A model generated the notes under the pieces. It had not been told where the DNA came from, did no database searches, and worked only from the letters and a program-made list of their open reading frames with translations. The position numbers and the translations under genes were made by a program. This document shows, piece after piece, positions 6,132 to 52,323 of a stretch of 64,000 nucleotides of DNA. The stretch spans positions 736,001-800,000 of the forward strand of contig OZ240215.1 in NCBI GenBank assembly GCA_965197585.1, written 5' to 3'. Position 1 is the first letter of the stretch. Each line of letters opens with the position of its first letter. This stretch comes from Dehalococcoidia bacterium (lineage in GTDB: Bacteria > Chloroflexota > Dehalococcoidia > Plut-88900).

Positions 6132-7036
6132 TATGAGGGGCCTGCGTGACCGGGAGCGGCTTCGGGTGGGGTGAGGCCGGAGAGTTGCATAAGACGGGGG
6201 ATATCGCGCTCCCAGCCCATAGGCATCAGGTGAACGCCACGAGTCAGTTGGGCGACTTCGGAAATAGTCCGGGCGGCGATTTCGATTCCTTTCTCACGCT
6301 TGTTTTCGGCGCAGTCCATTTCGTCTATCAAGGCCTGGGGCACTGCGATGCCGGGCACGTTGGCGTTGAGGTAACGGGCTGCTCGGCCCGAGTGCAGGAC
6401 TAGGATCCCGGCAAGGATAGGCACATTGAGATAGCGGGCCTTGTCCATGAAGCGGGCAAACTGCTCGGGGTCGTAGACGGCCTGAGTCTGAAAGAATCGG
6501 ACGCCGGCCTGGACCTTCTGCTCCATGCGGCCAACCTCTACATCTACGTCCGGAGCGCCCGGGTTGGCGGCTGCGCCGAGGCAAAAGGTGGGGGCGCCGT
6601 TAAGCGCGTTACCTGCCATGTCGACACCCGACTCCATTTGGGTTGCTGCACAGAGGAGCTCTATGACTGATAGGTCGAAGACGGGCTTGGCGTCGGGGTG
6701 ATCACCGGTACCTGTGGGGTCGCCGGTGAGGCACAGGATGTTTTGTATGCCGAGGACGTGAGCGCCGAGTAGGTCGGACTGGAGAGCGATCCTGTTGCGG
6801 TCCCGGCAGGTGAACTGGCAGATGGGCTCGATTCCCCGGTCGAGGATGACCTTGCCGAGGGGCAAGGGGCCGAGCCTCATTACGGAGGCGTTCTGGTCAG
6901 TGACGTTGACCGCGTCGACGGGCGCCAGGGAGTCCAGAAGAGACAGATTCTGCTCAATATTGACGCCTTTGGGGGGTGTCATCTCGGCGGTGACCAGGAA
7001 GGACTTGGATTCGATCTTGTCCCGGAAACTAGTCAA
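6131..7036 (-). CDS. metF: methylenetetrahydrofolate reductase
   Basis: TAEMTPPKG, TCRDRNRIALQSDL, LTGD, FFQTQ. Confidence 0.9.
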   Translation of the reverse strand: MTSFRDKIESKSFLVTAEMTPPKGVNIEQNLSLLDSLAPVDAVNVTDQNASVMRLGPLPLGKVILDRGIEPICQFTCRDRNRIALQSDLLGAHVLGIQNILCLTGDPTGTGDHPDAKPVFDLSVIELLCAATQMESGVDMAGNALNGAPTFCLGAAANPGAPDVDVEVGRMEQKVQAGVRFFQTQAVYDPEQFARFMDKARYLNVPILAGILVLHSGRAARYLNANVPGIAVPQALIDEMDCAENKREKGIEIAARTISEVAQLTRGVHLMPMGWERDIPRLMQLSGLTPPEAAPGHAGPS

Positions 7037-7136
7037 TTGCCTGCCCTCGAAGATTATTCAGGGGCCTGCAACGGCTCCTGTGGCGCATATAGTAAACCCC
7101 TTGGGGAAATTCGTCATGCAGGGTGGTTGATAAGTA

Positions 7137-7178
7137 TTGTGAAATTTGGTACATTGCATTCTGTTCCAAATTTCACAA
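7137..7178. promoter_or_regulatory. 13-bp perfect inverted repeat between divergent metF and folD
   Basis: TTGTGAAATTTGG-N16-CCAAATTTCACAA; function inferred from position. Confidence 0.5.
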
Positions 7179-7191
7179 AGGTGCTGCCGAG

Positions 7192-8130
7192 ATGACTGCT
7201 GAGATTATAGACGGAAGAAGGATTGCCGCAATTGTCAGGGAAGAAGTCCGGCTGGACGTCGGGCATCTGCGACAGGAGACGGGTACAATCCCTAATCTGG
7301 CAGTGGTTATGGTCGGGAACGATCCGGCCTCGGACGTATATGTAAGGACAAAAGAACGTGCGGCCCGGGCCGTGGGCATCGACACTCAGACCCTGCGTCT
7401 CGGGGCGGATGCCACGCAGGATGATGTTATAGATTTGGTAAAAGGGCTGAACGAAGACGACTCGGTGCACGGTGTCCTGGTACAGTTGCCGCTGCCGGAC
7501 CACGTCGACTCTTTGATTGTGGCAAGTACCGTTGCTCCTACAAAAGACGTGGACGGCCTTCACCCTGACAACGTGGGACTTCTGCTAATAGGTGCGCCTC
7601 GTTTTGTGCCGTGCACCCCGGCCGGTATTCAACGGATGTTGCTGGAGTCGGGGATAACAACTGATGGGAAGCACGTAGTGATCTGTGGGAGGAGCATGAT
7701 AGTCGGGAGACCGTTGGCGGCTCTACTGATGCAGAAGCAGTCGGGGGCCAATGCAACGGTCACCGTGGCCCACACGGGTACGAGAGAACTGTCCGAACTT
7801 ACGAGGCAGGCAGATATCCTAGTGGCCGCCATAGACAAGCCCAAAGGAATCAGGGCCGACATGGTGAAGCCGGGCGCAGTGGTCATAGACGTCGGCATTC
7901 ACCGCATGGAGGACCCTTCGAGTGAGAAGGGGTACCGTCTGGTGGGGGATGTAGACTTCGAAGGAGTAAGGGATCTTGCTAGCGTTATCAGCCCGGCCCC
8001 CGGGGGAGTGGGTCCCATGACTGTGGCGATGCTTCTGGTCAATACTCTGAAGGCCACAACCGTGGCGGCGAGAGAGCGTAGGCAGGTCCGTCAGATGTCC
8101 ACCTTTAGCAAGGTGCCGACCGGAGCGTAG
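7192..8130 (+). CDS. folD: methylenetetrahydrofolate dehydrogenase/cyclohydrolase
   Basis: VQLPLP, KDVDG, PCTP, GRSMIVGRP, PGGVGPMTVAML; start set at MTAEIIDG. Confidence 0.96.
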   Translation: MTAEIIDGRRIAAIVREEVRLDVGHLRQETGTIPNLAVVMVGNDPASDVYVRTKERAARAVGIDTQTLRLGADATQDDVIDLVKGLNEDDSVHGVLVQLPLPDHVDSLIVASTVAPTKDVDGLHPDNVGLLLIGAPRFVPCTPAGIQRMLLESGITTDGKHVVICGRSMIVGRPLAALLMQKQSGANATVTVAHTGTRELSELTRQADILVAAIDKPKGIRADMVKPGAVVIDVGIHRMEDPSSEKGYRLVGDVDFEGVRDLASVISPAPGGVGPMTVAMLLVNTLKATTVAARERRQVRQMSTFSKVPTGA

Positions 8131-38707: not shown

Positions 38708-41700
38708 TCAATGCCAGTCATGGGCGGCAGGCATCCGGGTCCCGACATCCAGCGTCTTCACGCTGGAGAGGGTCACGTTGGTGGTGCCGTCATGGCGGGA
38801 GACGACTCCCCTGGCCAAGAGTACGTGATTGCCCAACTCTCTCTTGTACCGGGCGAAGACCTTCGGCCAGACGATTAACTGCACGTCTCCCGTCTCGTCT
38901 TCTATTGTCACAAATACCGTGCCCTCTATGCCCCTGGGGTGCTGCCGGGCGACGGGCCAGCCGGCCACTAGTACCTTCTCGCCCTCGGGGAGGGTGTCGA
39001 TGTCACGGGCGGGCAGGACATCGGGACTCAGAGTCGGTCTCACGAACTCCATGACGTGTCCCCTGGGATAGATGTCCATGACGGCGTACTCGCCGGCCAT
39101 CTTCTCCTTTGGGGTGAAGTCGGGCAGGTTGGGAATGTTGGTTCCCGAGGAGATGGACATGGCTCTCTGGCCGTTTCTCGGGGGGCGAACGGGAAGGCCG
39201 ACATCCCACAAGGCCTCCCTGCGGTTGGGAGTAACCTCGTCGAAGGCCCCGGCCATAACGAGGGAGTGGATGGCCCGGGGTTTAAGCCCGGTCCTCCGCA
39301 CCAGGTCCCCGGCCCCCAAGTAGAAGCCGTTCCTATCCCTCTCCTCAACTATTGTCCTGGCCGACTCCCCACCCACATCCTTGACGATCCCCAGACCCAG
39401 CAATAAGGCATCATTATGAGGTACACACTTCACCTCGCTGTAGTTCACGCACGGGTTCAGGAAGGGTACCCCGAACCGCCGGGCGTCCTCCTTTATGGTC
39501 TCCATCGGGTAGAAGCCCATCGGCTGGTTGTTCATCAGCGCGACGAAGAACTCCAGCGGGTAGTGGCACTTGAGCCATGCGGCTTGGTAGGCGGTGACGG
39601 CAAAGGCATGGGAGTGGGACTCGGGGAACATGTAGTGGCCGTTGATCTTGGAGAATATCTTCCTCGCTGTCTCCTCTGGGACGCCGTTGCAACGAGCGCC
39701 CTCTACGAACCTCTCCCAGTGCCTGGCGATGAGGTGCTCGCTGTTGGGTCTGGCGAAGGCGCGGCGCACCTCGTCAGCCTGCGCCGCGGTCATGCCGGCC
39801 ACGTCCTCGATGAGCTGCACGACCTGCTCCTGCCAGACGATGATCCCGTAGCCCCGTTCCAGGGCGCGGGCTTCCAGTGGGTAGTCATAGTCCCACTCCG
39901 CCCCGTGCCTGTAGCGCTCGACGAACTGGGAGACGGCGCTGCCCTGTACGCCAACGCCGGGCCGGATGAGGGCGACCTGGTAGGCGAGGTCGAGGAGGTT
40001 CCGGGACTTCAGCCTCTGACCCATCTTGAGCTGCGCCGGGGACTGGAGCAGGAAGACTCCCTTAGAGAGGCCCCCGTTTATCATGTCGTACACGACCGCG
40101 TCATCAGGGTCTATACGGCTGATGTCGGGCCGCCTGCCCTCTCTCTTCTCCACCAGGTCGAGGGCCTCCTCTATCTGGTCAAGGACCGGCAGGGAGAGGA
40201 TGTCGATCTTGGCGAACCCGGCGTCGGCCACGCTGTCCTTGTTCCAGTCCATGATGTAGCGCCCGTCCATGGCCCCGGCCCTTATGGGGACCATCTCAGG
40301 GATGGGGGAACTGCTGAGCACCATGCCGCCGACGTGCTGGCTCAGTCCCCTGGGCGCGTCCATCAGCTGTGGAGCGAGATCAAGCAGGTCTCGCCAGCCC
40401 CGCACGTCCACCCTGTCCCTGAAGTCCGGGATCTGCTCCATCTCGTCCCGCAGGTCCGCGGCGTCGTGGGAGTGCAGCTGCTTCGACAGGAGGGAGAGTC
40501 GCTCCTTTGGAAGCCCCAGGGCCTTGCCCAGGTCCTGGAGGATGCCCTTGACCTTGTAGGTGGTGATGGCCCCGGTCAACACGGCGTACTCCGGCCCGAA
40601 ATGCCGGTGGACCCGCTCTATGAGCTCGTCCCTCAGACCCCTGGGGAAGTCGAGGTCGATGTCGGGAAGCGTCGTCATATCCTTGGAGATGAAGCGCTCA
40701 AGGGTGAGGTCCCACTTCAGGGGGTCGACGTGGCTGATTCCGATGAGGTAGCCGATGAGCAGCGCCACCGATGAGCCCCGTCCTCTTCCCGGCGGCCTCT
40801 CCTCTATAGGAGTCTCCGGGTTGACCAGCCCACGCTCCTCCATGATCGTCTGCGCCAAGAGCGCGATCTCCCTGTAGAGGAGCAGGAAGCCAGCAAGGTT
40901 CAGATGCTCGATCAGCTGGAACTCCTCGCGGAGACGCTCTTCGACGCGCTGGGGCACCGAGCCGTAGCGCCGCGCGGCCGCCTCGTAGCAGAGCCTCCGA
41001 AGGTAGCTCTCGGCCGTGTATCCCTCCGGCACCGAGGGACTGGGCTGGGTGTAACCAAGGTCCGTGCTGAGATCGAAGGCGCACCGCTCCGCCACCCGCA
41101 GGGTGCTGGAGACGGCCTCCGGCCATTCCCTGAAGAGCCGTTCCATCTGGTCATGGGACTTCAGATAGAAGTGGTGGTTGGGGCGAAGGTGCGGCAGGGC
41201 CTGGTCTACGGTGGTGTTGAGCTTTGCGGCCACGAGAGCGTCCTGTAGACGGGAGCGTTCGGGATGGTGGTAGAGGACGTTGTTGGAGGCGACCACCGGG
41301 ACGCCGGCCTCACCGGCGATCCTTGCCAGCCTCCTGTTGAGGTCGGTGTCCCCACGCAGGCGGTTCTGGTTGAGCTCGACGTACACCGAGCCGGACCCGT
41401 ACCAGTCCAGGTACCCCCTCAGCAGGTCATTGGCTTCTCTTATGCGGCCCTCCGCCGCCAGCCGTGAAAGCGGCCCGTCCCGACCGCCTGTCAGGAGCAC
41501 GACGCCCTCGGAGTGGTGGGGCAGATGAGCGGGGTCCAGCCTCGGCTCGCTGCGGTCAACGGAGTTGGCGTTGGTGAAGAGCTGGGAGATGTTGGAGTAG
41601 CCTGACCGCGTCGCGGCGAGAAGCGTGAGACGGGAGCCATCGGTCAGGGTCAACTCGCCGCCGGTGATGGGCCGGATGCCCAGGCTGTTGGCTAGCCGCG

Positions 41701-41854
41701 CGAACTCCAGCGCTCCACAGAGGTTCGTGTCGGTCAAGGCCAGGGCGGGGTAGCCGAGCTCCTTCGCCTGCGCCAGCAGCTCATGGGCATGGGAAGCCCC
41801 CATCCCGAAGGAGTGGAAGCTCTTGGCGTGAAGCTCGACGTAGCCATCCGTCAT
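38708..41854 (-). CDS. dnaE2: error-prone DNA polymerase DnaE2 (ImuC)
   Basis: YVELHAKS PHP start overlapping imuB stop (TGATG), GRGS, PDIDLD, QHVGG, FPESH, NNQPMGFY, OB fold with IEDETG. Confidence 0.93.
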   Translation of the reverse strand: MTDGYVELHAKSFHSFGMGASHAHELLAQAKELGYPALALTDTNLCGALEFARLANSLGIRPITGGELTLTDGSRLTLLAATRSGYSNISQLFTNANSVDRSEPRLDPAHLPHHSEGVVLLTGGRDGPLSRLAAEGRIREANDLLRGYLDWYGSGSVYVELNQNRLRGDTDLNRRLARIAGEAGVPVVASNNVLYHHPERSRLQDALVAAKLNTTVDQALPHLRPNHHFYLKSHDQMERLFREWPEAVSSTLRVAERCAFDLSTDLGYTQPSPSVPEGYTAESYLRRLCYEAAARRYGSVPQRVEERLREEFQLIEHLNLAGFLLLYREIALLAQTIMEERGLVNPETPIEERPPGRGRGSSVALLIGYLIGISHVDPLKWDLTLERFISKDMTTLPDIDLDFPRGLRDELIERVHRHFGPEYAVLTGAITTYKVKGILQDLGKALGLPKERLSLLSKQLHSHDAADLRDEMEQIPDFRDRVDVRGWRDLLDLAPQLMDAPRGLSQHVGGMVLSSSPIPEMVPIRAGAMDGRYIMDWNKDSVADAGFAKIDILSLPVLDQIEEALDLVEKREGRRPDISRIDPDDAVVYDMINGGLSKGVFLLQSPAQLKMGQRLKSRNLLDLAYQVALIRPGVGVQGSAVSQFVERYRHGAEWDYDYPLEARALERGYGIIVWQEQVVQLIEDVAGMTAAQADEVRRAFARPNSEHLIARHWERFVEGARCNGVPEETARKIFSKINGHYMFPESHSHAFAVTAYQAAWLKCHYPLEFFVALMNNQPMGFYPMETIKEDARRFGVPFLNPCVNYSEVKCVPHNDALLLGLGIVKDVGGESARTIVEERDRNGFYLGAGDLVRRTGLKPRAIHSLVMAGAFDEVTPNRREALWDVGLPVRPPRNGQRAMSISSGTNIPNLPDFTPKEKMAGEYAVMDIYPRGHVMEFVRPTLSPDVLPARDIDTLPEGEKVLVAGWPVARQHPRGIEGTVFVTIEDETGDVQLIVWPKVFARYKRELGNHVLLARGVVSRHDGTTNVTLSSVKTLDVGTRMPAAHDWH

Positions 41855-43305
41855 CAGGCGCTCTGCCGGTACCAGCGTTCTTCCGTCCCGTCGCGGAACA
41901 GGGTGATCTGGCCGCCGCCGTCGGGCTCGATCCGGTAGTAGTCGCGGGCAACCGGCTCCGGGAGCCACCACAGGTCGAAGGTCCACATGTCGTCTATGCG
42001 GGCCACCCGCCGCCATCGTCTCCGAAGCAGCACCGACACAGGGTCGCCCTCCGTTCCCTCCCGCACCTCCACCGGCTGCGGCGGGTGGAGGGGCCTGATG
42101 GCGTCCCTGCCCGACGGGTCGATGGGCACCTGCAGGGCACGCATCTCCGGGGCGGGGTGCCACGGCGCGACCTCGGCGATCCGGTGGAGTGTGTGACCGC
42201 CTCCCATCACCGCCTGCAACCTGCGCTCCACCTCGACGAGCCTCCTGCGCCTGTCGTCCTGGAAGTCCTTCAGCAGCCCCATCTGGACGCCCGACTCGCC
42301 GGTGAAGCCAGACAGGGTGACCGTCACGTCCTCGACGGGGTTGTGCGGAGGGTCCGCCTCCAACTTGCTCCGGACGATTTCGGAGGCCCTCTCCCATGCG
42401 CCGACCGGCTGCTTGAACCTGACACTCTTCTCCCAGGGCGGCCAACCGGAAGCCGTGCAGAGGAGGTCCGCCGCGCCCGCGTACCGGCCCCTCATGTCCG
42501 ACCTGGCGTATGCCCGTCTTAGAAGGGCGTCCACGGCGACGAACAGAGCCTGTATGGAGGAGGAGTGGAACGGCAACGACGTGTGCTCGACGACTGACTC
42601 CTCCAACGCCAGGGGTATGACCGGGCTGTCGTCGACACCGTTGCAGAGCGACCACGCCCGCCTGCCTTCGGGCCCGAACCGGTCCGTGAGCACGTGGACG
42701 CTCATCTCTGCGACAGCGCCCACCGTGTGCAGGCCGAATCGATGCAGCTCGGCCTTCACGTCGGCGGAGACGGGCAGCAGGTCGGCGGCGTGCGGGGCCA
42801 GGAACGCCTCCACGTCGTCGGGGACCCTGAACGCCCCGTGCGCGCCGCACGTCAGGGCCGCTACATATGCGGGGAACTTGGCGTCTGCCAGCCCGACGCG
42901 GGGGCTCAGGTACGGAGGAACCGCGTTGAGCAGCGCCGAGACGACCCCAGCCTCGCCCTGGTACAGCCCTTCGAGGCCGTCGATGCGCACGTAGGCGATG
43001 CCGAGCTCTGTCCCCTCAACCCGGTCGCTGATACCCTGTAGGGAGGAGAGCACCCGGCCGAAGACCCGGCGGTAGTGCGGCTCGTCGGAGTCCAGCACGA
43101 CGGCGTTCGCGTGGCGGGACAAGCCCGCCTCCAGGGTCATCCCGGCCGTGACTCCCCAGGCTGAGCGAAAGCGGTCGACGACCAGTGGCCTCGTCCTCGA
43201 AGCGTTCCGGTCGACGATCAGTACGGGCCTGTCCTTCAGCTGGGGCTGCCGGCCCATCTGCACCTTTGCTCTCAGGTGAGTGACGAGCACGCAAGCGACT
43301 CTCAT
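41854..43305 (-). CDS. imuB: ImuB-like Y-family polymerase homologue
   Basis: GVTAGMTL, AYVRIDGL, FGLHTVG; lacks obvious catalytic SIDE motif; coupled to dnaE2. Confidence 0.85.
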   Translation of the reverse strand: MRVACVLVTHLRAKVQMGRQPQLKDRPVLIVDRNASRTRPLVVDRFRSAWGVTAGMTLEAGLSRHANAVVLDSDEPHYRRVFGRVLSSLQGISDRVEGTELGIAYVRIDGLEGLYQGEAGVVSALLNAVPPYLSPRVGLADAKFPAYVAALTCGAHGAFRVPDDVEAFLAPHAADLLPVSADVKAELHRFGLHTVGAVAEMSVHVLTDRFGPEGRRAWSLCNGVDDSPVIPLALEESVVEHTSLPFHSSSIQALFVAVDALLRRAYARSDMRGRYAGAADLLCTASGWPPWEKSVRFKQPVGAWERASEIVRSKLEADPPHNPVEDVTVTLSGFTGESGVQMGLLKDFQDDRRRRLVEVERRLQAVMGGGHTLHRIAEVAPWHPAPEMRALQVPIDPSGRDAIRPLHPPQPVEVREGTEGDPVSVLLRRRWRRVARIDDMWTFDLWWLPEPVARDYYRIEPDGGGQITLFRDGTEERWYRQSA

Positions 43306-43346
43306 AGGTCCTCCTCGATCCTTGAGTAGAGGGGTCAGGACGGGAA

Positions 43347-43375
43347 AGGATAGAGAACAGGTGTTCGTTTGTCAA
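43347..43375 (-). promoter_or_regulatory. SOS promoter with LexA box
   Basis: minus-strand TTGACA-N17-TATCCT; GAAC-AGGT-GTTC (43355-43366) inside the spacer. Confidence 0.85.
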
Positions 43376-43554
43376 CCATTCGGCTGAATTCACAACGCTG
43401 TACGAGCGGCGGTGTACCGGGACCAGTGCAACCGAGCAACCATGACGAGTCGGTGGGACAATCCCATGCCGATACCCCGTCATTTGCGCGAGTGCTACCA
43501 TCAACGTCGCATAGCGGCTAGGATAGTTTCGAGCAATCGGAGGGTGTATGGCCG

Positions 43555-44358
43555 ATGGCGGAGCTAGGACCGGCAACGACACGACGGACGAGGACTGGGG
43601 TCAACTACGCCAGCCAGTGGAATCACTTCGTCGCGTGGTCCCGGGCTTCAGGGAAGTGTTCGCTGCCCGCTTCCCCCGAGGACGTGGCGGCATACCTCGA
43701 AGACCGGTCGGGGACGGGCGCGAGGCCATCGACCCTGCGGGTGGTGGCTGCGGCGATAGCCCGCAGCCACAGGGACGCCGGTTTCGACGTGCCGATCCAT
43801 AAAGGCCCCGCCCGGACCGCGCTGGAAGAGTTGACGCAGGAGGACTCCCACCGCCCGGCCAGGGCGCTCCCCCTGGACCTGGACTGCTATCTCGCCATCA
43901 GGAAGACGGCCCAACAGCCCCGTAGGGGAAGGGGCGGCCGGCTGGAACGCACCGCGAGCGCCCGCAGGCGGGGAGCGATGGACATTGCCATGATCGGCCT
44001 GATGCGGGATGCGAGGCTGAGGGTGAGCGAGGCGGCCGACCTGACCTGGGGCGACATCGAGCGTCAGCGCGGCGGCTCGGGACGCGTTCGCGTCGTGGGA
44101 GACGGGGAGACCAGCCACCGCGAGGTGAGCGCCGACACGATGAAGTTGCTCCTGCCGGTACGACGGGGCGCGGGCGACGACGAGCCCGTTCTCGGCATGA
44201 GGCCCAACCAGATAGCGAGACGGATAGACGCGGCGGCGAGACAGGCCGGCCTGGGCGAGGGCTACTCCGGCGACAGCCCCCGGCTGGGCATGATCCGGGA
44301 CATGGAGACCGTCGGCGTACACCTGCTGGGTGCCTACGCCGCAGAGAGCGCACGCTAG
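43555..44358 (+). CDS. Cre-like tyrosine recombinase paralogue, apparently catalytically degenerate
   Basis: N-terminal core-binding domain and LRVSEA retained; DSPR instead of HxxR; lacks catalytic Lys hairpin and canonical W/Y tail. Confidence 0.75.
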   Translation: MAELGPATTRRTRTGVNYASQWNHFVAWSRASGKCSLPASPEDVAAYLEDRSGTGARPSTLRVVAAAIARSHRDAGFDVPIHKGPARTALEELTQEDSHRPARALPLDLDCYLAIRKTAQQPRRGRGGRLERTASARRRGAMDIAMIGLMRDARLRVSEAADLTWGDIERQRGGSGRVRVVGDGETSHREVSADTMKLLLPVRRGAGDDEPVLGMRPNQIARRIDAAARQAGLGEGYSGDSPRLGMIRDMETVGVHLLGAYAAESAR

Positions 44359-44763
44359 CCGTAGGCATCCCCCAATAGGGCGTTACGCCACGGGCCCGGA
44401 CGCCGGGCTCGCTCAAGGGTCCCTGTAGAGATCGGTACCCGCTCTCAGCCCCGACTCGCCGTGGGGGCCCCTGGAGCATCCTTCGAGCCCCCAAAATCGT
44501 TACACTATATATAGGAGACGAAATTTGTAGCCGCCTCGGGAGGGAAGGGATTCCCGGAGGGGTCTACGAGCAGCTCCGGCATAGCAGGGTCAACATCCGT
44601 CCCGGCCTGAAAAAATCGTATGTTTTCAATAGAGACGGCATCTCATAACGATGCGGCCATTGACGAGAAAAGAGGAGGTACAGCATGGGGTTAAATGGGA
44701 GCCCGGAAGGGGGCGGATAGGAGAGAGGGTTTCGTTCCAGCCGGCAGTCTCAGCCGCTAATGC

Positions 44764-44797
44764 TAAAGCGTGTATAAATACATTTATACACCCTGTA
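44764..44797. other. loxP-like recombination site 1
   Basis: TAAAGCGTGTATA-AATACATT-TATACACCCTGTA (13-8-13; arms 11/13 inverted match). Confidence 0.75.
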
Positions 44798-44829
44798 GCT
44801 AAACGACAATGAAAGCGGCTAGGAGACAA

Positions 44830-46089
44830 ATGACACAGGGTAAGCCGGATCTCGAACAGTACTTTCCCGCCGGTCTGCGGCTACTCGAACACCGCCCGGC
44901 AGGCGGAGGCGAGAGCGAACGAGAGCAGGCCCGCGCCCTTCTTTCAGGACCTCAAGCCAGGATAAGCAGGCTCCGGGACTTTGCGGACTTCGACGAGCCT
45001 TCCCGGCCCGAGCCGGCCCGTGCAGCAGGCCGCACCCGGAACCGGGGCGGCTACCGGAGCGAGGCGGATGCGGGCGCTCTCATCACCGTCGCTCCCACCG
45101 ACCTCACGGGCGTGTTCGAGGTGGAACCGGACGATCCCTCTCGAAACGGCGCCAATCTTGCGGAGTCGGACCTGGACAACCTGACCGCGGTCCTCGGCCA
45201 CGAGGTCGCCCCCAATACGATGAAGAACTACCGGGTCCAGTGGAACAATTTCATAAACTGGGCGGCCGGCAAGGGCGTACGGGCGCTGCCCGCCGACCCG
45301 CGGCACGTCGCCGCATACCTGGCCGAGCGCATCGAAGAGCACGGCCACAAGCCCGCGACGCTGCGGGCCGCGGCGGCGGCCATAGCGTTCATCCACAGGT
45401 CCGCCGGGCAGGACGACCCCTGCGCCAGCCCCGAGGTCAAGCGAACGCTCAGGAGCGCAACGCGCAAGGCCGGCAGGGGCCAGAAGCAGGCTCAGGCGCT
45501 CACGGACGAGGCGCTCGTCGCCATCCGGTCGACCGCCTGCAGCCCTCGTCCCGGCCGGGGCGGCAGGCCGGAGGGCCGGGAGACCGCCAGGTGCAGGGGG
45601 AACCTGGACATAGCGCTGATCAGCCTGATGCGCGACGCCATGCTCAGAGTGTCCGAGGCCGCCGTCCTGACCTGGAGCGACATAGTGTCCGAGGCCGACG
45701 GCACGGGACGCCTGCTCATCCGGCGCTCCAAGACGGACTCCGAGGGAGAGGGGGCGGTGGGTTTCCTGTCCGTTCAGACGATGGAGGCGCTCAGGCTGAT
45801 ATGCGGCGCGAGGGTGTCCACGGACAGCGTGTTCGGGCTGCGCCCCAACCAGATCTCACGGCGCATCAAGCAGGCGGCGCAGGCGGCAGGCCTGGGGGAC
45901 GGCTTCAGCGGTCACTCGCCGAGGGTGGGCATGGCCCGGGACCTGGCGAGGGCCGGAATCGAGCTGCCCAGCCTGATGAACGCCGGACGCTGGCGCACCC
46001 CGGCCATGCCCGCTCACTACACCCGCAACGAGACAGCAGGCAAGGGAGCGGTGGCCCAGTTCCACGGCTACTGCCGCCGCGTCGCATGA
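44830..46089 (+). CDS. Cre-like tyrosine recombinase, intact catalytic set
   Basis: LRVSEA (R), RSKTD (K), GHSPRVG (HxxR), AGRW (W), HYTR (Y); AGGAG RBS before ATG 44830. Confidence 0.9.
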   Translation: MTQGKPDLEQYFPAGLRLLEHRPAGGGESEREQARALLSGPQARISRLRDFADFDEPSRPEPARAAGRTRNRGGYRSEADAGALITVAPTDLTGVFEVEPDDPSRNGANLAESDLDNLTAVLGHEVAPNTMKNYRVQWNNFINWAAGKGVRALPADPRHVAAYLAERIEEHGHKPATLRAAAAAIAFIHRSAGQDDPCASPEVKRTLRSATRKAGRGQKQAQALTDEALVAIRSTACSPRPGRGGRPEGRETARCRGNLDIALISLMRDAMLRVSEAAVLTWSDIVSEADGTGRLLIRRSKTDSEGEGAVGFLSVQTMEALRLICGARVSTDSVFGLRPNQISRRIKQAAQAAGLGDGFSGHSPRVGMARDLARAGIELPSLMNAGRWRTPAMPAHYTRNETAGKGAVAQFHGYCRRVA

Positions 46090-46130
46090 ACGGGGCTCTT
46101 AATTTAGGAAGAGAATCCTTGCAACGGGGA

Positions 46131-46158
46131 TTGACTTGACCTGGCGAATTGTGATAAT
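46131..46158 (+). promoter_or_regulatory. putative outward-facing promoter inside lox-flanked segment
   Basis: TTGACT-N16-GATAAT with TGn extended -10. Confidence 0.55.
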
Positions 46159-46212
46159 TTTTGGCCCATGAAGCGGTTAACCACCGCCTCCAGCGGTATT
46201 AGAGGAGACAAT

Positions 46213-46246
46213 AAAAGCGTGTATAAATGTATTTATACACCCTCTG
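46213..46246. other. loxP-like recombination site 2 (spacer inverted relative to site 1)
   Basis: AAAAGCGTGTATA-AATGTATT-TATACACCCTCTG; spacer is the exact reverse complement of AATACATT. Confidence 0.75.
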
Positions 46247-46733
46247 GCTTGAGAAACTCCTACGGGTCGCCGCCTGCGCCTGCCCGTCGCGCCGGACGGA
46301 CCGGCGGGATGACAACGCTGACGGCCCATCACTCCCAATGGTGTGCTCACTGGGGAGAAATTACCCCATCCGGCGGGAACGAGGATACCGAGTACTACGG
46401 TGACGCCCGCAATGGAGAGGCACTGGCCCCTCCGATAACACTTCTCTCGTTTGTCTGTGGTGAAAGGAATACTGAGCCGGGCCTCACCTGCGCCGAGTTC
46501 ATCGATCCTCCTGCCCAATCACGACCGGGCCAGGTTCTCACCTCGGCGGCCGTAGAGCGCATCTCCCGCGGCATAGTGGTCTCGATCCCGCTCAAGTCAT
46601 CCCCGGCCGACTACACCGTGTTCATTATGAACAACGCTATTGCCCAAGCAGTGCCTATCTTCCACCGAACATACGAAAAAGTGGTGGCTTGTTGGCCCCC
46701 GACTAACGCGAATCGGCGAGCCGGAGGTAAGTC

Positions 46734-49700
46734 ATGAGAGCCTCCCGGAGTCTTGCGACGCTCCCACTGATTCTCCTCGGACTGACGGCCATCGCCGCCC
46801 TGGTGCTCATACCCTGGGTTGTCCAGGCACAGAGCCAGACGTCAGATGAGAATACAGTGGTTTGGTCGGCCGACATGTATGTCGTGGAATACACCTCCGT
46901 TTCCATTGGAGCTGCCAGCGCCGACCTTTTCTCCAACATAGGGGGCAGCGGAAACCTTAACATAAAGTCGCTTTGGTCCCATGTTCCTAACCGTGATATC
47001 CACCTGAGCTTCGAAGATGGGGTTCCCGATGCCGCGGACTATACGCTCAAAGTTGGCGACCTCACTCTGGAATTTCCAAAGGGAAGTTCCGAGAACAGTA
47101 GCTTCAAATGGGCGGATGTGGACGTCGATTGGGAGGACGGACAGACGATTCCTGTGAGCATCGTCCCAACGTCGGTGCTGGTGAAACCCACTCCCAACAG
47201 TGATGCCACCGGTCTGCCGACCATCAGCGGTACGCCCCAAGTGAGGGAGACCCTGACGGCGGATACGGCGGACATTGCCGACGGGGATGGGCTGAACAAC
47301 GTTGCTTACCGATACCAGTGGGTCGCCGGGGGTTCGGACATCAACGGGGCCACCGGTTCAACCTACACCCTGACTACCAGCGAGCAGGGCAAGACCATCA
47401 AGGTGAAGGTGTCCTTCACTGACGACGCCGATAACGAGGAGACCCTGACCAGCGAAGCTACGGTGGAGGTAGCTGCGGCGCCCAACCGTGATGCCACGGG
47501 CGCGCCGACCATCAGCGGGACGCCCCAGGTGAGGGAGACCCTGACGGCGGATACGGCGGACATTGCCGACGGGGACGGGCTGAGCAACGTTACTTACCGA
47601 TTCCAGTGGATCACGAATAACGGGTACGCCGACGCGGACATTGAGGACGCAACGGACTCCACCTATACCCTGTCCGACACCGATGTGGGCAAGACCATCA
47701 AGGTTCGGGTCTCATTCGCCGACGCCGCCGATAACGACGAGTCCCTGACCAGCGTGGGGACAACAGCAGTTCTCGCCACCGTACCCACACAGCCTTTGAG
47801 CCTGGCCGTGGCAACAGGAGACCAAATCCAGGAACTTGATGCGTCTTGGCAGGCCCCCTCATCCAACGGTGGTTCCGCCATCACTGGATACAAGGTGCAG
47901 TGGAAGGAGGCGGCCGACAGCTGGGACACCGCAGCGGACGTTTCCGAGGCCACGGTGACCGGGACTACGGACACTATCACCGGATTGACTGGAGGGGTGG
48001 CATACGCCGTTCGGGTCATAGCCAGCAACGTCATGGGCTACGGTCCGGCATCTACCGAGGCGGCGGGCACGCCTAGCGGAGGCATCTCGGAGCAGAACAC
48101 CGAGTCTGAGAACTCTGCGCCCGCCGGCCTGCCCACCATCAGCGGGACGCCCGAGGCGGAACAGACGCTGACGGCGGACACCTCGGCCATTACCGACGGG
48201 GACGGGTTGACCAATGTTTCCTACGGCTACCAGTGGATCAGGAACGACGGGAACGCCGACGCCGACATTGAGGATGCAACGGACTCGACCTACAAGCTGT
48301 CCGACGCCGACGTGGGCAAGACCATCAAGGTGAAGGTGAGCTTCACCGATGACGCTGACAACCAGGAGACCCTCACCAGCGCGGCTACTGACGAAGTGGT
48401 GGCGGCCCAGGCAAGCAGTCAAGGCACCACTCTTCCTACCGTCATCGGACCTGCCGTGGTCGACCAGACGCTGACCGTGTCCACGTCGGACATCGCCGAC
48501 GACGACGGACTGACCAACGTTTCCTACAGTTACCAGTGGATTCGCAGCGGCACCAACGGTGACACCGACATAGCGGGCCAGACAGCATCCACGTACACGC
48601 TGGTCGCCGCAGATGTGGGCAACGCAATCAAGGTCAAGGTGTCCTTCGATGACGACGCCAACAACCAGGAGACTCGCACCAGCGAGGCGACCGCGACCGT
48701 GGTGGCCAAGCCGAACGTGATTGTTATTCTAGTGGATGACCTGGGGTACAACGACGTCAGCTACAACGGCGCCACGCAGATTCAGACGACAAACATAGAC
48801 CGCCTGGCCAGCCGCGGCGTTACATTCACGAATGGATATGTGCCCTACTCAACTTGCACTCCGTCCCGAGCTGGCCTTCTGACCGGTCGTTACCCGTCAA
48901 GGTTCGGTTTGGAAGGCAACCTGGCGTACGCTCCCTTTGACGATAACCATGGGCTTCCACTAGAGGAAACGCTCTTTCCCGAAAGACTTCAAGACGAAGG
49001 CTATCGGACTGGTATCGTGGGCAAGTGGCAGCTTGGAGCCGCACGGAGATTCAACCCGCTTAACCGGGGATTCGACTACTTCTTCGGTTTCCTGGGCGGT
49101 GGGCACAGCTATTGGCACTCAAATACGACGTCCCCGCACGACCACATGCAACTCCCGCTCATCGAGAACACCGGTTACGGAGAGTTCGACGGATATTTGA
49201 CGGACGTCCTCACCGACAGAGCAATAGACTTTATCGAGAAACCAACGGACGAACCCTTTTTCCTCTACCTGGCCTACAACGCGCCACACACTCCACTACA
49301 GGCCCCGCAGGAACTCATCGACAAGTACTCCACCGTTGAAGACCGCAAGCGGCGCATCTACCTCGCAATGGTGGACTCGCTCGACCAGAACATCGGCAGA
49401 GTGCTGGACGCCCTGGACGAATCCTCCCTCGCCGACAACACCGTCATCTTCTTCCTCAGCGACAACGGCGGCCGGTCCGGCAAGCCTCCGGAATCAGACC
49501 ACGCCGACAACAACCCGCTCCGCGGCGCGAAAGACAGTTTCTACGAAGGCGGAATACACGTACCTTTTGTCGCTTCATGGCCAGCCATGTGGCCCGAAGG
49601 GCACACCTACGATCCTATGGTCATCAGCCTGGACATAGCCTCTACCGTCCTGAAGCTGGCAAACGCCACCTCCGAAGACCCCGACAGGCCGATCGACGGA

Positions 49701-51923
49701 GTCGACCTTGACCCATTTCTCCGAGGCGCAGAAGAAGGCCCCCCGCATCAGGCATTGTTCTGGCGCGACTGGAGAAGCGGAGGCTACGCAGTCCGCTCCG
49801 GCGATGACAAACTGATCAAAGAAAGGCGCATTCACGGAAAACCCCAACCCATCCTGGACACAGGTGAAAGCCCCGAGCTATTCGACCTCGAGAACGACAT
49901 CAGCGAGTCACAAGACCTGCTGGCCGAGCAGCCGAAGACAGCACAAGAGCTTGCAGCGCTGTGGAACGCATGGAACGCAGACAACGCCATCGGCAACCTG
50001 TTCTACGGCATCAGTTCCTACAACGACAACCTCAAGGCATACCTGCAAGGCTATTACGACCAAAGGTTCCTCACTGCGACACAATTGCCGAAGTATGAAA
50101 TAGATTTACCTCTTGTGCAGCCACCCGTAGCCGACGGCAATGCCACGGGCTTGCCGACCATCAGCGGGACGCCACAGGTGAGGGAGACCCTGACGGCGGA
50201 TACGGCGGACATTGCCGACGAGGACGGGCTGACCAACGTTGCTTACCGATACCAGTGGAGCGCCGGGGGTTCGGACATCAACGGGGCCACCAGTTCCACC
50301 TACATCCTGACCGCCAGCGAGCAGGGCAAGACCATCAAGGTGAAGGTGTCCTTCACCGACGACGCCGATAACGAGGAGACCCTGACCAGTGAAGCGACAG
50401 TGGCCGTAGCTGCGGCGCCCAACCGTGATGCCACGGGCTTGCCGACCATCAGCGGGACGCCACAGGTGAGGGAGACCCTCACGGCGGATACGGCGGACAT
50501 TGCCGACGAGGACGGGCTGACCAACGTTGCTTACCGATACCAGTGGAGCGCCGGGGGTTCGGACATCAACGAGGCCACCAGTTCCACCTACATCCTGACC
50601 GCCAGCGAGCAGGGCAAGACCATCAAGGTGAAGGTGTCCTTCACCGACGACGCCGATAACGAGGAGACTCTGACCAGCGAAACGACAGTGGCCGTAGCTG
50701 CAGCTGCCAACCGCGGGGCCACGGGCCAGCCCACCATCAGCGGTACGCCCCAGGTGAGGGAGACCCTCACGACGGATACGGCGGACATTGCCGACGAGGA
50801 CGGGCTGACCAACGTCTCATACAGCTACCAGTGGATCGCGGGAGGGACGGACATCGGCGGGGCCACCGGCTCCACCCACACCCTGACCGCCAGCGAACAG
50901 GGCAAGACCATCAAGGTGAAGGTGTCCTTCACCGACGACGCCGATAACGAGGAGACTCTGACCAGCGAAACGACAGTGGCCGTAGCTGCAGCTGCCAACC
51001 GCGGGGCCACGGGCCAGCCCACCATCAGCGGTACGCCCCAGGTGGGCCAGACGCTGACGGCGGATACGGCAAACATCGTCGACCAAGACGGGCTGACCAA
51101 CGTCTCATACAGCTACCAGTGGATCGCGGGAGGGACGGACATCGGCGGGGCCACCGGCTCCACCCACACCCTGACCACCAGCGAGCAGGGACAGACCATC
51201 CAGGTGCGGGTGACCTTCACCGACGACGCCGATAATGAAGAGACCCTGACCAGCATTGCTACCGTCGCCGTTACGGCGGCCGCTGCCCAAGCCAACAACC
51301 CGCCCACCGGCCTGCCCGGCATCAGCGGGACCCCCCAGGTGAGAGAGACGCTGACGGCGGACACCTCGCCCATAGACGACCAGGACGGGCTGACCAACGT
51401 TGCCTACCGTTACCAGTGGACCGCCGGAGGGTCGGACATCAACGGGGCCACCAGTTCCACCTACATCCTGACCGCCAGCGAGCAGGGCAAGACCATCAAG
51501 GTGAAGGTGTCCTTCACCGACGACGCCGATAACGAGGAGTCCCTGACCAGCGAAGCGACAGTGGCCGTAGCTGCGGCGCCAGTTCCGCTCACCGTCAGCC
51601 TGACCGTCACGGCCCCGGCGACCCATGACGGATCGTCAGAGTTCACCTTTGACATCGAGTTCAGCGAGGAGTTCGGCCTGAGCTACGTGACCCTGAAGAC
51701 CCATGCCTTCAATGTGACGGGAGGCACGGTCGAGACTGCGCAGAGAACGGACAAGCCCAGCAACATCTCCTGGCGCATCACGGTAAAGCCGCAAGGCAAC
51801 GGGGACGTGACCATCGTTCTGCCCGTCACCACGGACTGCGACGCCGACGGGGCCATCTGCACCGCGGACGGCAGGAAACTGTCCAACTCGCTGAGCTTCA
51901 CTGTATCGGGGCCGGGCCAATAG
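46734..51923 (+). CDS. secreted 1729-aa Ig-like-repeat/FN3 protein with embedded sulfatase domain
   Basis: signal peptide ending VQA; nine ~96-aa PTISG...YQW...VSFTDD repeats; FN3 (WQAP...GYKVQW); PNVIVILVDDLG and CTPSRAGLLTG sulfatase signature; SDNG. Confidence 0.9.
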   Translation: MRASRSLATLPLILLGLTAIAALVLIPWVVQAQSQTSDENTVVWSADMYVVEYTSVSIGAASADLFSNIGGSGNLNIKSLWSHVPNRDIHLSFEDGVPDAADYTLKVGDLTLEFPKGSSENSSFKWADVDVDWEDGQTIPVSIVPTSVLVKPTPNSDATGLPTISGTPQVRETLTADTADIADGDGLNNVAYRYQWVAGGSDINGATGSTYTLTTSEQGKTIKVKVSFTDDADNEETLTSEATVEVAAAPNRDATGAPTISGTPQVRETLTADTADIADGDGLSNVTYRFQWITNNGYADADIEDATDSTYTLSDTDVGKTIKVRVSFADAADNDESLTSVGTTAVLATVPTQPLSLAVATGDQIQELDASWQAPSSNGGSAITGYKVQWKEAADSWDTAADVSEATVTGTTDTITGLTGGVAYAVRVIASNVMGYGPASTEAAGTPSGGISEQNTESENSAPAGLPTISGTPEAEQTLTADTSAITDGDGLTNVSYGYQWIRNDGNADADIEDATDSTYKLSDADVGKTIKVKVSFTDDADNQETLTSAATDEVVAAQASSQGTTLPTVIGPAVVDQTLTVSTSDIADDDGLTNVSYSYQWIRSGTNGDTDIAGQTASTYTLVAADVGNAIKVKVSFDDDANNQETRTSEATATVVAKPNVIVILVDDLGYNDVSYNGATQIQTTNIDRLASRGVTFTNGYVPYSTCTPSRAGLLTGRYPSRFGLEGNLAYAPFDDNHGLPLEETLFPERLQDEGYRTGIVGKWQLGAARRFNPLNRGFDYFFGFLGGGHSYWHSNTTSPHDHMQLPLIENTGYGEFDGYLTDVLTDRAIDFIEKPTDEPFFLYLAYNAPHTPLQAPQELIDKYSTVEDRKRRIYLAMVDSLDQNIGRVLDALDESSLADNTVIFFLSDNGGRSGKPPESDHADNNPLRGAKDSFYEGGIHVPFVASWPAMWPEGHTYDPMVISLDIASTVLKLANATSEDPDRPIDGVDLDPFLRGAEEGPPHQALFWRDWRSGGYAVRSGDDKLIKERRIHGKPQPILDTGESPELFDLENDISESQDLLAEQPKTAQELAALWNAWNADNAIGNLFYGISSYNDNLKAYLQGYYDQRFLTATQLPKYEIDLPLVQPPVADGNATGLPTISGTPQVRETLTADTADIADEDGLTNVAYRYQWSAGGSDINGATSSTYILTASEQGKTIKVKVSFTDDADNEETLTSEATVAVAAAPNRDATGLPTISGTPQVRETLTADTADIADEDGLTNVAYRYQWSAGGSDINEATSSTYILTASEQGKTIKVKVSFTDDADNEETLTSETTVAVAAAANRGATGQPTISGTPQVRETLTTDTADIADEDGLTNVSYSYQWIAGGTDIGGATGSTHTLTASEQGKTIKVKVSFTDDADNEETLTSETTVAVAAAANRGATGQPTISGTPQVGQTLTADTANIVDQDGLTNVSYSYQWIAGGTDIGGATGSTHTLTTSEQGQTIQVRVTFTDDADNEETLTSIATVAVTAAAAQANNPPTGLPGISGTPQVRETLTADTSPIDDQDGLTNVAYRYQWTAGGSDINGATSSTYILTASEQGKTIKVKVSFTDDADNEESLTSEATVAVAAAPVPLTVSLTVTAPATHDGSSEFTFDIEFSEEFGLSYVTLKTHAFNVTGGTVETAQRTDKPSNISWRITVKPQGNGDVTIVLPVTTDCDADGAICTADGRKLSNSLSFTVSGPGQ
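50141..51580 (+). repeat. coding tandem repeats, 288-bp period
   Basis: units start at 50141, 50429, 50717 and 51005, with a fifth at about 51300. Confidence 0.9.
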
Positions 51924-52077: not shown

Positions 52078-52323
52078 ATGCCCCGACAGCGCACTCGCTA
52101 CAGCACCACAACCCACGCCTTCACCGAAGACTTCCCGGAGCGGCTGAAGCGTTTCCAGAGGGAGTCTGGGCTGTCGTGGTCGGAGATCTCCCGGCGTCTG
52201 GCAACCTACCGCCACACCGTATGGCGTTGGAAGGAAGGCAGAGGTCGACCCAACGCCGAGCACATGATCGCCCTCCTCGACCTGGCCGAAGACCTGGGTC
52301 TCCTCCACCTGTTCACCGAGTAA
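52078..52323 (+). CDS. XRE-family helix-turn-helix protein
   Basis: GLSWSEISRRL...TVWRWKEG...P pattern; AGGAGG RBS. Confidence 0.75.
   Translation: MPRQRTRYSTTTHAFTEDFPERLKRFQRESGLSWSEISRRLATYRHTVWRWKEGRGRPNAEHMIALLDLAEDLGLLHLFTE

What the first reader, a model, noticed from the sequence alone, without database searches (positions are those of the whole stretch)
44764..46246. Natural Cre/lox-like cassette: recombinase gene bracketed by two 34-bp loxP-architecture sites with inverted spacers
Seen: site 1 is TAAAGCGTGTATA-AATACATT-TATACACCCTGTA (44764-44797) and site 2 is AAAAGCGTGTATA-AATGTATT-TATACACCCTCTG (46213-46246). Both are AT-rich islands in GC-rich DNA, flanking one recombinase gene. 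Known: P1 loxP is ATAACTTCGTATA-GCATACAT-TATACGAAGTTAT, with the same 13-8-13 geometry, the same GTATA/TATAC inner arms and an ATACAT-containing spacer. The enclosed protein has the Cre-type tail (GHSPRVGMARDLARAG...AGRW...HYTR; compare Cre GHSARVGAARDMARAG...AGGW...NYIR). The spacers are exact reverse complements, which for Cre-type enzymes dictates inversion rather than excision. Inference: a self-contained ~1.45-kb invertible element encoding its own recombinase, and a candidate new orthogonal recombinase/site pair.
Basis: partly seen in the sequence, partly recalled or inferred. Interest (0 to 1): 0.92.

Follow-up and report, generated by a model that had tools for sequence, protein, structure and literature searches.

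The report
Self-flipping Cre-like gene switch
A Cre-like recombinase gene sits between two mirror-image target sites and has flipped in place in related bacteria, most likely working as a portable on/off switch for the large gene next to it.

Summary
Two near-palindromic 34-bp sites (44764-44797, 46213-46246) bracket a Cre-type tyrosine recombinase gene (44830-46089). Their central 6 bp are exact reverse complements.

The inversion reading is supported by comparison, not by experiment. In three close relatives the 1.45-kb segment lies inverted relative to both flanks, with breakpoints inside the sites. The same holds between two Ca. Poriferisodalis genomes from another phylum. With sites defined by their arms alone, 28 of 31 loci have reverse-complementary spacers, in 15 different sequences.

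The segment also carries a conserved outward promoter (46131-46158). A ribosome-binding site and a start codon follow, and the start codon lies in the inner arm of site 2. In the window this reads into a 172-codon leader whose stop overlaps the start of a 1729-aa secreted sulfatase/Ig-repeat gene.

Elsewhere the cassette abuts other giant secreted proteins or restriction/defence genes. I read it as a self-contained phase-variation cassette, here in the "on" orientation. A conserved, catalytically dead recombinase paralog (43555-44358) lies beside it.

Switching within one population, recombinase activity and promoter activity are all untested. I rate it a new variant of a known kind.

The parts
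43555..44358 (+). Catalytically dead, truncated Cre-like paralog (267 aa) in the fixed flank on the site 1 side ('P flank')
   Evidence: It is 45% identical to the recombinase over residues 136-401. It keeps both Arg residues but lacks the Lys hairpin, has Asp in place of the first His, and ends before the Trp and the Tyr nucleophile. Length and stop position are conserved in 15 loci. dN/dS is 0.14-0.22, against 0.14-0.26 for the recombinase.
44764..44797 (.). Site 1 (site A): 34-bp lox-like site, core 44770-44791, 6-bp centre ATACAT at 44778-44783. The outer arm is 'AAAGC' type and the inner arm 'CCCTG' type.
44830..46089 (+). Cre-type tyrosine recombinase, 419 aa, with an AGGAG ribosome-binding site at 44821-44825. 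An upstream in-frame ATG at 44809 would give 426 aa.
   Evidence: PF00589. Cre is the best PDB match. The catalytic R-K-H-R-W-Y residues are invariant. Most homologues are 419 aa long.
46131..46158 (+). Predicted outward promoter inside the element (P_out): TTGACT, 16 nt, GATAAT preceded by TG
   Evidence: It is one of only 2 promoter-like hits in 43300-46900, where 0.4 are expected. By eye, TTGAC and GTGnTA are conserved islands in about 17 of 30 aligned 3' ends.
46202..46221 (+). Ribosome-binding site GAGGAG (46202-46207) and GTG start codon (46219-46221). The start codon is the first triplet of the inner arm of site 2.
   Evidence: Of 54 loci, the end next to site B has an in-frame start at 0 to -9 in 45, with a purine-rich motif upstream in 38. 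The end next to site A has a start in 30 but such a motif in only 3.
46213..46246 (.). Site 2 (site B): 34-bp lox-like site, core 46219-46240, centre ATGTAT at 46227-46232, the reverse complement of the site 1 centre
46219..46737 (+). Leader ORF of 172 codons. It starts in site 2, is translated across the site, and its TGA overlaps the ATG of the next gene (ATGA at 46734-46737).
   Evidence: dN/dS is 0.5-0.8, so it is probably not a functional protein in itself.
46734..51923 (+). Presumed target gene: a 1729-aa protein with a signal peptide, ZirU-like/Ig and fn3 repeats, and a sulfatase domain

Best explanation
The segment 44764-46246 is an invertible DNA cassette. Its own Cre-type tyrosine recombinase binds the two 34-bp sites and exchanges strands within the 6-bp centres. 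Because the centres are reverse complements, the exchange flips the 1.45-kb segment instead of deleting it.

The 3' end of the cassette carries an outward promoter, a ribosome-binding site and a start codon. The start codon lies in the inner arm of site 2, so the recombination site itself is transcribed and translated.

In the window's orientation this end faces the giant secreted sulfatase/Ig-repeat gene. Translation of a leader that ends in an ATGA overlap would couple to that gene, giving 'on'. In the other orientation the same signals read a 13-codon dead end towards the paralog, giving 'off'.

Shown here: the sites, the enzyme family, inversion between genomes, and covariation of the spacers. 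Inferred: promoter activity, translational coupling, which orientation is 'on', and ongoing reversible switching. The role of the dead paralog is unknown. It may regulate or bias switching.
For: 1. Inversion in place. Window 43490-44794 matches L017, L018 and L019 on the minus strand. Window 44762-46250 matches them on the plus strand. Window 46216-46393 matches on the minus strand again. Identities are 87-93% and the breakpoints lie inside the sites. The same three-segment pattern holds between two Ca. Poriferisodalis genomes, L049 and L042.

2. Predicted hybrid sites. A relic in the same genome (L009 4699-4732) and one in G005 carry the L-L hybrid site that inversion would produce.

3. Spacer covariation. 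With sites defined by their arms only, 28 of 31 loci have exactly reverse-complementary spacers, in 15 distinct sequences, and 0 are identical in the direct sense. Under a stricter motif rule, 47 of 68 loci have such a pair, against 255 of 4556 cross-locus pairings.

4. Enzyme. It belongs to the Cre type and the catalytic residues are intact.

5. Expression signals. P_out is predicted and conserved. A ribosome-binding motif precedes the start codon at the site B end in 38 of 54 loci, and at the site A end in 3 of 54.

6. Link to the neighbouring gene. The leader stop overlaps the start of the big ORF in 12 of 52 locus-sides. In 2 more (L024, L030) the big ORF is in frame with the site's start codon. 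L024 has no other start codon before the signal peptide.

7. Neighbours. They are classes typical of phase variation: giant secreted proteins, and type I, IIG and III-like restriction genes and HmaC.

8. Intact targets. The big ORFs are intact in the presumed 'off' loci. Relics L086 and L088 keep only the site B end in front of intact defence genes.
Against: No data show both orientations within one strain. The only inverted-junction contigs, one in X3 and one in X8, differ from the window at 10-17 positions and come from related strains.

Orientation is strongly biased. A giant ORF of 900 aa or more faces the recombinase 5' end in 35 of 54 loci, and faces the promoter end only in the window. 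So either 'off' is the usual state or the polarity is the reverse of what I propose.

The promoter is a consensus match only. No strand-specific RNA data were available.

The leader ORF is not under protein-level constraint (dN/dS 0.5-0.8).

In the Chloroflexota type the inner arm of site A also begins with GTG.

The recombinase's own promoter was not identified.

The loci compared are related to one another, so the counts are not independent events.
Confidence: 0.62

Rival explanations
1. The cassette inverts, but with the opposite polarity. The common orientation, with the recombinase 5' end next to the big gene, is 'on'. The promoter at the 3' end serves something else, such as antisense control of the paralog.
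For: A giant ORF faces the 5' end in 35 of 54 loci. In the Poriferisodalis type a conserved non-coding stretch of about 130 nt lies between site A and the recombinase start, which could hold divergent promoters. The inner arm of site A also offers GTG in 30 of 54 loci.
Against: No promoter-like site was found on the minus strand at the site A end of the window. A ribosome-binding motif precedes the site A start in only 3 of 54 loci, against 38 of 54 at the site B end. Most Poriferisodalis-type loci have no in-frame start codon at the site A end. Relics L086 and L088 keep the site B end, not the site A end, in front of intact genes.
Confidence: 0.15
2. The cassette inverts but regulates nothing. 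It is a selfish or neutral recombinase module whose inversions are rare evolutionary accidents, and the promoter-like and start-like features are by-products of the site sequence.
For: Orientation differs only between genomes in the data at hand. The leader ORF is unconstrained. GTG belongs to the arm consensus.
Against: Spacer pairs stay compatible through 15 different sequences, which implies continued selection for recombination. TTGAC/GTGnTA islands are conserved in otherwise variable 3' regions. The ribosome-binding motif is asymmetric between the two ends. Stop-start overlaps recur in front of unrelated gene families.
Confidence: 0.13
3. The two sites are the ends of a mobile element, either terminal inverted repeats or attL/attR, that moves by excision and integration rather than flipping in place.
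For: The family is multi-copy in some genomes, with 3 loci in one chromosome. It occurs at 60-70% identity in several phyla, so it spreads horizontally. In L017 the spacers are in near-direct orientation.
Against: Each end is a complete two-arm site, and the spacers are inverted in 28 of 31 loci and never identical in the direct sense. A Cre-type enzyme would invert such sites, not excise the segment. The same flanks hold both orientations. Flank sequences just outside the sites are conserved together with the cassette.
Confidence: 0.06
4. The palindromes are operators for a transcription factor, such as the XRE-like protein at 52078, and not recombination sites.
For: They are AT-rich palindromes in intergenic DNA.
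Against: Evolutionary breakpoints of the inversions fall inside them. They always come as a pair around the recombinase gene, in many loci and phyla; whether those loci carry an XRE gene was not checked. The genome holds only three copies, all beside recombinase genes or their remnants.
Confidence: 0.02

Closest known systems
Cre/loxP of phage P1 and other Cre-type simple tyrosine recombinases
   Same: Cre is the best solved homologue and P1/P7 Cre are the best phage matches. The catalytic set is the same, including Trp instead of the second His. The target is a 34-bp site of two 13-bp inverted arms around an asymmetric centre, lying next to the gene. That architecture is described for loxP in PMC10250229 (passages read).
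   Different: Identity to Cre is only 28-29%. There is an extra, poorly conserved N-terminal stretch of about 100 aa. Two chromosomal sites in inverted order bracket the gene. Only 6 central bases vary. The site is embedded in a translated leader. Activity is untested.
Hin/hix flagellar switch of Salmonella
   Same: The recombinase gene lies inside the invertible segment. PMC5903667 (passage read) names Hin as the example of this. That an outward promoter in the segment drives the neighbouring gene in one orientation is recalled, not read.
   Different: Hin is a serine invertase that depends on an enhancer. This enzyme is a tyrosine recombinase. No enhancer was looked for here.
fimS (FimB/FimE), Clostridioides difficile RecV switches and Bacteroides invertible promoters
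   Same: Tyrosine recombinases invert short promoter segments to switch surface structures on and off. I saw abstracts and listings only.
   Different: In those systems, as I recall them, the recombinase gene lies outside the switch and the repeats are short and are not lox-like full sites.
Mycoplasma vsa/vsp/vpma and Ureaplasma mba inversion systems
   Same: The recombination sites lie at the 5' end of surface-protein genes. For Ureaplasma, inversion at short inverted repeats is stated in the abstracts listed. That inversion there joins an expression site to gene bodies is recalled.
   Different: Those systems shuffle several silent gene bodies past one expression site. Here one cassette carries its own enzyme, promoter and start codon.
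Flp/FRT of the yeast 2-micron plasmid
   Same: A tyrosine recombinase gene lies between inverted target sites and flips the segment that holds it (recalled, not checked here).
   Different: It sits on a eukaryotic plasmid and serves copy-number amplification. It is not a gene switch.

Membership tests
Tyrosine recombinase (Pfam PF00589) | Domain match and the catalytic residues Arg-Lys-His-Arg-His/Trp plus the Tyr nucleophile | tested here: met
   PF00589 at E 1.5e-13. R273, K301, H362, R365, W388 and Y397 are invariant in 28 sequences and align to the corresponding Cre residues.
Cre-type simple recombinase with a lox-like site | Closest relatives are Cre-family enzymes | tested here: met
   17 of 18 PDB hits are Cre or an engineered Cre (Tre), best E 2.5e-14. 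In phages, 21 of the 22 matching records are from Escherichia, Enterobacteria, Salmonella or Punavirus phages, and the seven of them listed are annotated as cre.
Cre-type simple recombinase with a lox-like site | A 34-bp target of two 13-bp inverted arms around an asymmetric spacer, close to the gene | tested here: met
   The sites lie 33 nt upstream and 124 nt downstream of the ORF.
Cre-type simple recombinase with a lox-like site | An 8-bp spacer with cleavage 6 bp apart | tested here: inconclusive
   Six central positions vary and covary. The A and T next to them are nearly invariant. This fits either a 6-bp spacer or an 8-bp spacer with a 6-bp overlap. The cleavage points are unknown.
Cre-type simple recombinase with a lox-like site | Recombination of minimal sites without accessory proteins | not testable with these tools
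   This needs expression and reporter assays. A conserved dead paralog next door leaves an accessory role open.
Invertible phase-variation switch (inverton) | A segment bounded by inverted repeats and found in both orientations | tested here: met
   Met between genomes. Within one population the test was inconclusive, because only contigs of related strains show the alternative junction.
Invertible phase-variation switch (inverton) | A promoter or start signals in the segment that act on a neighbouring gene in one orientation | tested here: inconclusive
   The signals are predicted and conserved. No expression data were available.
Serine DNA invertases (Hin/Gin/Cin) | Serine recombinase (resolvase) catalytic domain | tested here: not met
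   Only tyrosine-recombinase domains were found.
Xer/dif chromosome dimer resolution | One dif site per replicon and membership of the XerC/D/A/S/H families | tested here: not met
   The genome holds three sites, and other genomes carry up to three cassettes. Xer models score 20-35 bits against cut-offs of 220-335.
Transposon or integrative element | Ends that recombine to excise, with empty sites or target duplications | tested here: inconclusive
   The spacers are inverted, so excision is not expected. No flanking direct repeat was seen when reading the junctions. No systematic search for empty sites was made.

The most novel reading that the evidence does not exclude
This is a portable, self-contained Cre-family phase-variation cassette. 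It comprises the recombinase, two lox-like sites, an outward promoter, a ribosome-binding site, and a start codon built into the recombination site. It has spread horizontally among symbiont lineages of different phyla, including Chloroflexota and Actinomycetota. It switches giant secreted proteins and restriction/defence systems on and off through a translated site and a coupled leader. In one lineage a catalytically dead recombinase paralog acts as a regulator of switching.
Probability: 0.4. Interest if true: 0.85.

Novelty: new variant of a known kind. Interest (0 to 1): 0.77.

Why it matters
Programmed inversion switches are known mainly from pathogens and gut bacteria. There they use short repeats and, with few exceptions such as Hin, a recombinase encoded outside the switch. 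This would be a tyrosine-recombinase counterpart of the Hin layout, built from full lox-like sites.

It recurs in front of unrelated genes in uncultured bacteria of several phyla. Some of them bear sponge-symbiont names, and related contigs occur in a run labelled sponge metagenome.

It would give a direct handle on how such symbionts vary giant surface or secreted proteins and phage defence.

It also offers a natural series of Cre-type enzymes, each with its own site pair, across at least 15 spacer variants. These are candidates for orthogonal recombination tools.

My four literature searches on this topic, and a search for the name Poriferisodalis, found no description of it. Supplements and subscription journals were not searched.

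Tried and rejected
Reads. Only Logan contigs were available. The two best holders (X1, X2) showed no inverted joint. One contig in X3 and one in X8 (an RNA library labelled sponge metagenome) join the left flank to the inverted right end. They differ from the window at 10-17 positions, so they show the other state in related strains, not switching in this one. Contigs cannot give strand or transcript ends.

Complex prediction of the recombinase core with the paralog. The verdict was 'no answer'. I draw nothing from it.

Structure of the paralog. Mean pLDDT was 61.6, too poor for a fold search, so none was run.

Rfam scan of 43000-47200 at E up to 0.1: no match.

Metagenome scan. It gave only 11 loci, none near-identical to the window. 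Three of them (L092, L093, L099) showed a site on each side of the gene with reverse-complementary spacers.

Leader ORF as a real protein. Rejected, because dN/dS is 0.5-0.8 and only the first 50 codons or so are conserved.

An ATG created by the GT centre of site 2 as a conserved start. Rejected, because other loci have other centres.

LexA or other operator ideas for the palindrome were considered from memory and dropped.

The first automated site finder picked noise in loci whose arms differ from the Chloroflexota consensus. Those rows were not counted. One search selects pairs by spacer match and is therefore circular for pair agreement. The unbiased count is.

In 21 of 68 full-length loci no pair passed the strict rule. 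By the arm-based scans, four of them (L020, L022, L037, L056) have reverse-complementary spacers but a deviant arm, and L039 does too alone. Two (L017, L031) have non-matching spacers. The rest are displaced, single-site or distant homologues of 35-53% identity with no site found.

Supplementary files of papers were not consulted.
Full report
THE OBSERVATION

Their 22-bp cores are GTGTATAA-ATACAT-TTATACAC (44770-44791) and GTGTATAA-ATGTAT-TTATACAC (46219-46240).

With up to three mismatches the core occurs nowhere else in the window, and in none of 100 shuffles. It occurs at only one further place in the 3.43-Mb genome. The 10-nt half-site occurs five times in the genome, all within these three sites.

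The sites lie in dips to about 50% G+C between genes of about 70%. They bracket one ORF with a Phage_integrase domain.

In this genome the palindrome is really 13-2-13. The left arms of both sites are of an 'AAAGC' type and the right arms of a 'CCCT' type. So the arms stand as direct repeats while the centre is inverted.

THE ENZYME

Cre is the closest solved protein (E 2.5e-14). Residues 358-409 align to Cre 285-336 through the GHSxRVGxARDxARAG...W...Y stretch, and residues 141-308 align to the Cre core. Seventeen of the 18 PDB hits are Cre or engineered Cre, and the last is XerD at E 3e-4.

In an alignment of 28 homologues, R273, K301, H362, R365, W388 and Y397 are invariant. Xer family models score far below their cut-offs. 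The best phage matches are Cre of P1 and P7 at 28-29% identity. Plasmid matches reach 30-38% and are annotated only as integrases.

Most database homologues are 419 aa long. This fits the start at 44830 behind AGGAG.

INVERSION HAS HAPPENED, EXACTLY AT THE SITES

A. The same genome holds a decayed second copy (L009). It has a broken paralog, then a site whose two arms are both of the 'AAAGC' type, then the reverse complement of the recombinase 3' region. Window 45919-46243 matches L009 5023-4702 at 76%. This is the hybrid site and the order that inversion between sites 1 and 2 would produce.

B. In the same-genus genome G001, the orthologous cassette is inverted relative to the paralog flank. 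It is also inverted relative to a giant-repeat gene on the other side, though that match may be paralogous. Its two sites are exact reverse complements of each other over 20 bp, with a different centre (ATCCAG and CTGGAT).

C. Three close loci (L017, L018, L019) give a clean three-segment picture. The left flank matches on the minus strand, the cassette on the plus strand, and the right flank on the minus strand. Identities are 87-93% and the alignments overlap within the sites.

D. The same pattern holds between two Ca. Poriferisodalis (Actinomycetota) genomes. For L049 against L042 the segments are minus, plus and minus, at 80-86%.

E. One contig in run X3 and one in run X8 join the left flank to the inverted right end at the site. 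Both come from related strains.

I have no evidence for switching within one population.

THE FAMILY

A pattern scan of one genome per species returned 75 loci. They come from Dehalococcoidia and other Chloroflexota, Ca. Poriferisodalis and other Acidimicrobiia, Binatia, Nitrospirales, Latescibacterota and others. Some chromosomes hold up to three loci. More than 1000 related proteins exist in metagenome catalogues.

I defined sites by their arms alone, leaving the centre free and allowing up to 4 arm mismatches. On that basis 31 loci have one site on each side of the gene. In 28 of them the 6-bp centres are exact reverse complements, and in 2 they differ at one base. In L017 they are in near-direct orientation. 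There are 15 distinct centres, and none of the pairs is identical in the direct sense.

A rule based on the conserved inner arms finds such a pair in 47 of 68 full-length loci, one of them off register. The control of cross-locus pairing gives 255 of 4556.

The two bases on each side of the centre and the TTAT/ATAA arm starts are nearly invariant. The six central bases vary. That call used pairs partly chosen by spacer match, so its pair-agreement figures are not independent.

This pattern is what the need for identical overlap regions in tyrosine recombination predicts. That requirement is established knowledge, stated from memory.

WHAT THE CASSETTE CARRIES

The consensus scan finds one promoter on the plus strand of 43300-46900. 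It is TTGACT, 16 nt, then GATAAT with an upstream TG, at 46131-46158. It lies inside the cassette and points out through site 2.

In an alignment of 30 cassette 3' ends, TTGAC and GTGnTA stand out by eye as conserved islands in about 17. The surrounding sequence is otherwise variable. A purine-rich motif follows about 11 nt before the site. The Poriferisodalis type has its own conserved TGnTACTCT and GGGGGAC motifs at that end.

The first triplet of the inner arm of site B is GTG or ATG in most loci. Of 54 loci, the site B end has an in-frame start at 0 to -9 in 45, with a ribosome-binding-like motif in 38. The site A end has a start in 30 but such a motif in only 3.

WHAT THE CASSETTE READS INTO

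In the window the frame opened by GTG 46219 runs 172 codons and stops in an ATGA overlap with the start of the 1729-aa gene. Towards the paralog flank the same frame stops after 13 codons.

Across the family, the leader stop overlaps a start of the large ORF in 12 of 52 locus-sides. These lie in front of different gene families. In L024 and L030 the large ORF is itself in frame with the site's start codon. L024 has no other start codon before its signal peptide.

The leader is not constrained as a protein (dN/dS 0.5-0.8).

THE NEIGHBOURS

In the window the neighbour is a secreted protein with a sulfatase domain and many ZirU-like/Ig and fn3 repeats. In other Chloroflexota-type loci the neighbours include an RTX/Calx-beta protein, a subtilase and further fn3/Ig giants.

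In Poriferisodalis-type loci they are type IIG and type I restriction-modification genes, a type III-like helicase-nuclease, and an HmaC/DUF499 ATPase.

A large outward-facing ORF of 900 aa or more lies next to the recombinase 5' end in 35 of 54 loci. It lies next to the promoter end only in the window. Smaller ORFs (L046, L047 and others) lie on the promoter side.

Among the 13 Poriferisodalis-type loci whose conserved flank I could place, it lies on the site B side in 9 and on the site A side in 4 (read).

The relics L086 and L088 keep only a recombinase tail, the 3' end of the cassette and the site, in front of intact defence genes of 1016 and 1168 aa.

THE PARALOG

The ORF 43555-44358 is a shortened Cre-like protein. 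It keeps both arginines. It lacks the lysine hairpin, has Asp or Glu for the first His, and ends before the Trp and the Tyr.

It has the same length in 15 loci and dN/dS of 0.14-0.22. It is therefore a maintained gene that cannot catalyse recombination.

In 15 of the 75 loci it lies beyond site B on the opposite strand. Only the window has it solely upstream on the same strand, and L026 has one on each side. A further, weaker paralog match (53%) lies beyond site B on the same strand as the recombinase in L068. Its role is open.

READING

The cassette is an invertible switch that encodes its own Cre-type enzyme. I put about 85% on that part.

I put about 60% on the proposal that its 3' end is the expression end and that the window is in the 'on' state.

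The main weaknesses are the strong orientation bias, the lack of expression data, and the lack of within-population data.

It works like the Hin segment of Salmonella, where the recombinase also lies inside the segment (passage in PMC5903667). It uses a Cre-type tyrosine enzyme and full lox-like sites, the architecture described for loxP in PMC10250229 (passages read).

Searches of the open literature found no description of it.

Noticed in passing
G000:C1:2593679-2595041 (L009 3664-5041): A decayed second copy of the whole arrangement in the same genome. It holds a paralog with stop codons, one hybrid site, the inverted cassette 3' end, and only the last 62 or so codons of the recombinase. 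It is cut off by an unrelated 330-aa ORF on the minus strand.
   Followed up: yes
L017 5941 and 7390: The recombinase here is 94% identical, but the two site centres (ATACAG and ATATAG) are in near-direct orientation. This is the only such case. The downstream site has two identical arms, so only its centre defines its direction. This copy may be locked or prone to excision.
   Followed up: partly
L053 and L057 (3169-4512 and 5983-6888): Two recombinase genes lie in tandem. The recognisable site pair surrounds the upstream copy only.
   Followed up: no
L065 versus L069; L069 5455-5724 and 7111-7380: The same small flanking genes (ORF clusters c5 and c40) lie on opposite sides of the cassette in these two genomes. 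This suggests a further pair of opposite states. L069 also has a 270-nt inverted repeat that extends beyond the sites.
   Followed up: no
window 38708-43305 (-): An ImuB-like Y-family polymerase gene (41854-43305, PF00817) lies next to a 1380-aa ORF, possibly an error-prone polymerase cassette. The other promoter-like hit (43375-43347, minus strand) lies upstream of it.
   Followed up: no
window 44654-44638 (-): A terminator-like hairpin lies in the paralog-side flank. It is oriented to stop transcripts leaving the cassette in the 'off' state. Two such hits were found in the scanned region against 2.0 expected by chance, so this is weak. The Poriferisodalis flank has a similar 8-bp hairpin.
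   Followed up: no
L041, L042, L045, L048, L061 (about 55 nt outside the site): The same short leader, ending in ...GTTGACCGGAATG, precedes unrelated defence genes (type III-like and type IIG). The portable unit therefore seems to extend to the start codon of whatever gene it controls.
   Followed up: partly
L016 (G005) 6440-7833: This same-genus genome has the paralog, one hybrid site and 127 nt of the cassette 3' end, including the promoter region, but no recombinase gene.
   Followed up: partly
window 44809-44815 and the same place in other loci: An ATGAAAG motif about 17 nt inside site A is conserved in many Chloroflexota-type loci. It may be an alternative recombinase start, possibly on a leaderless transcript.
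   Followed up: no
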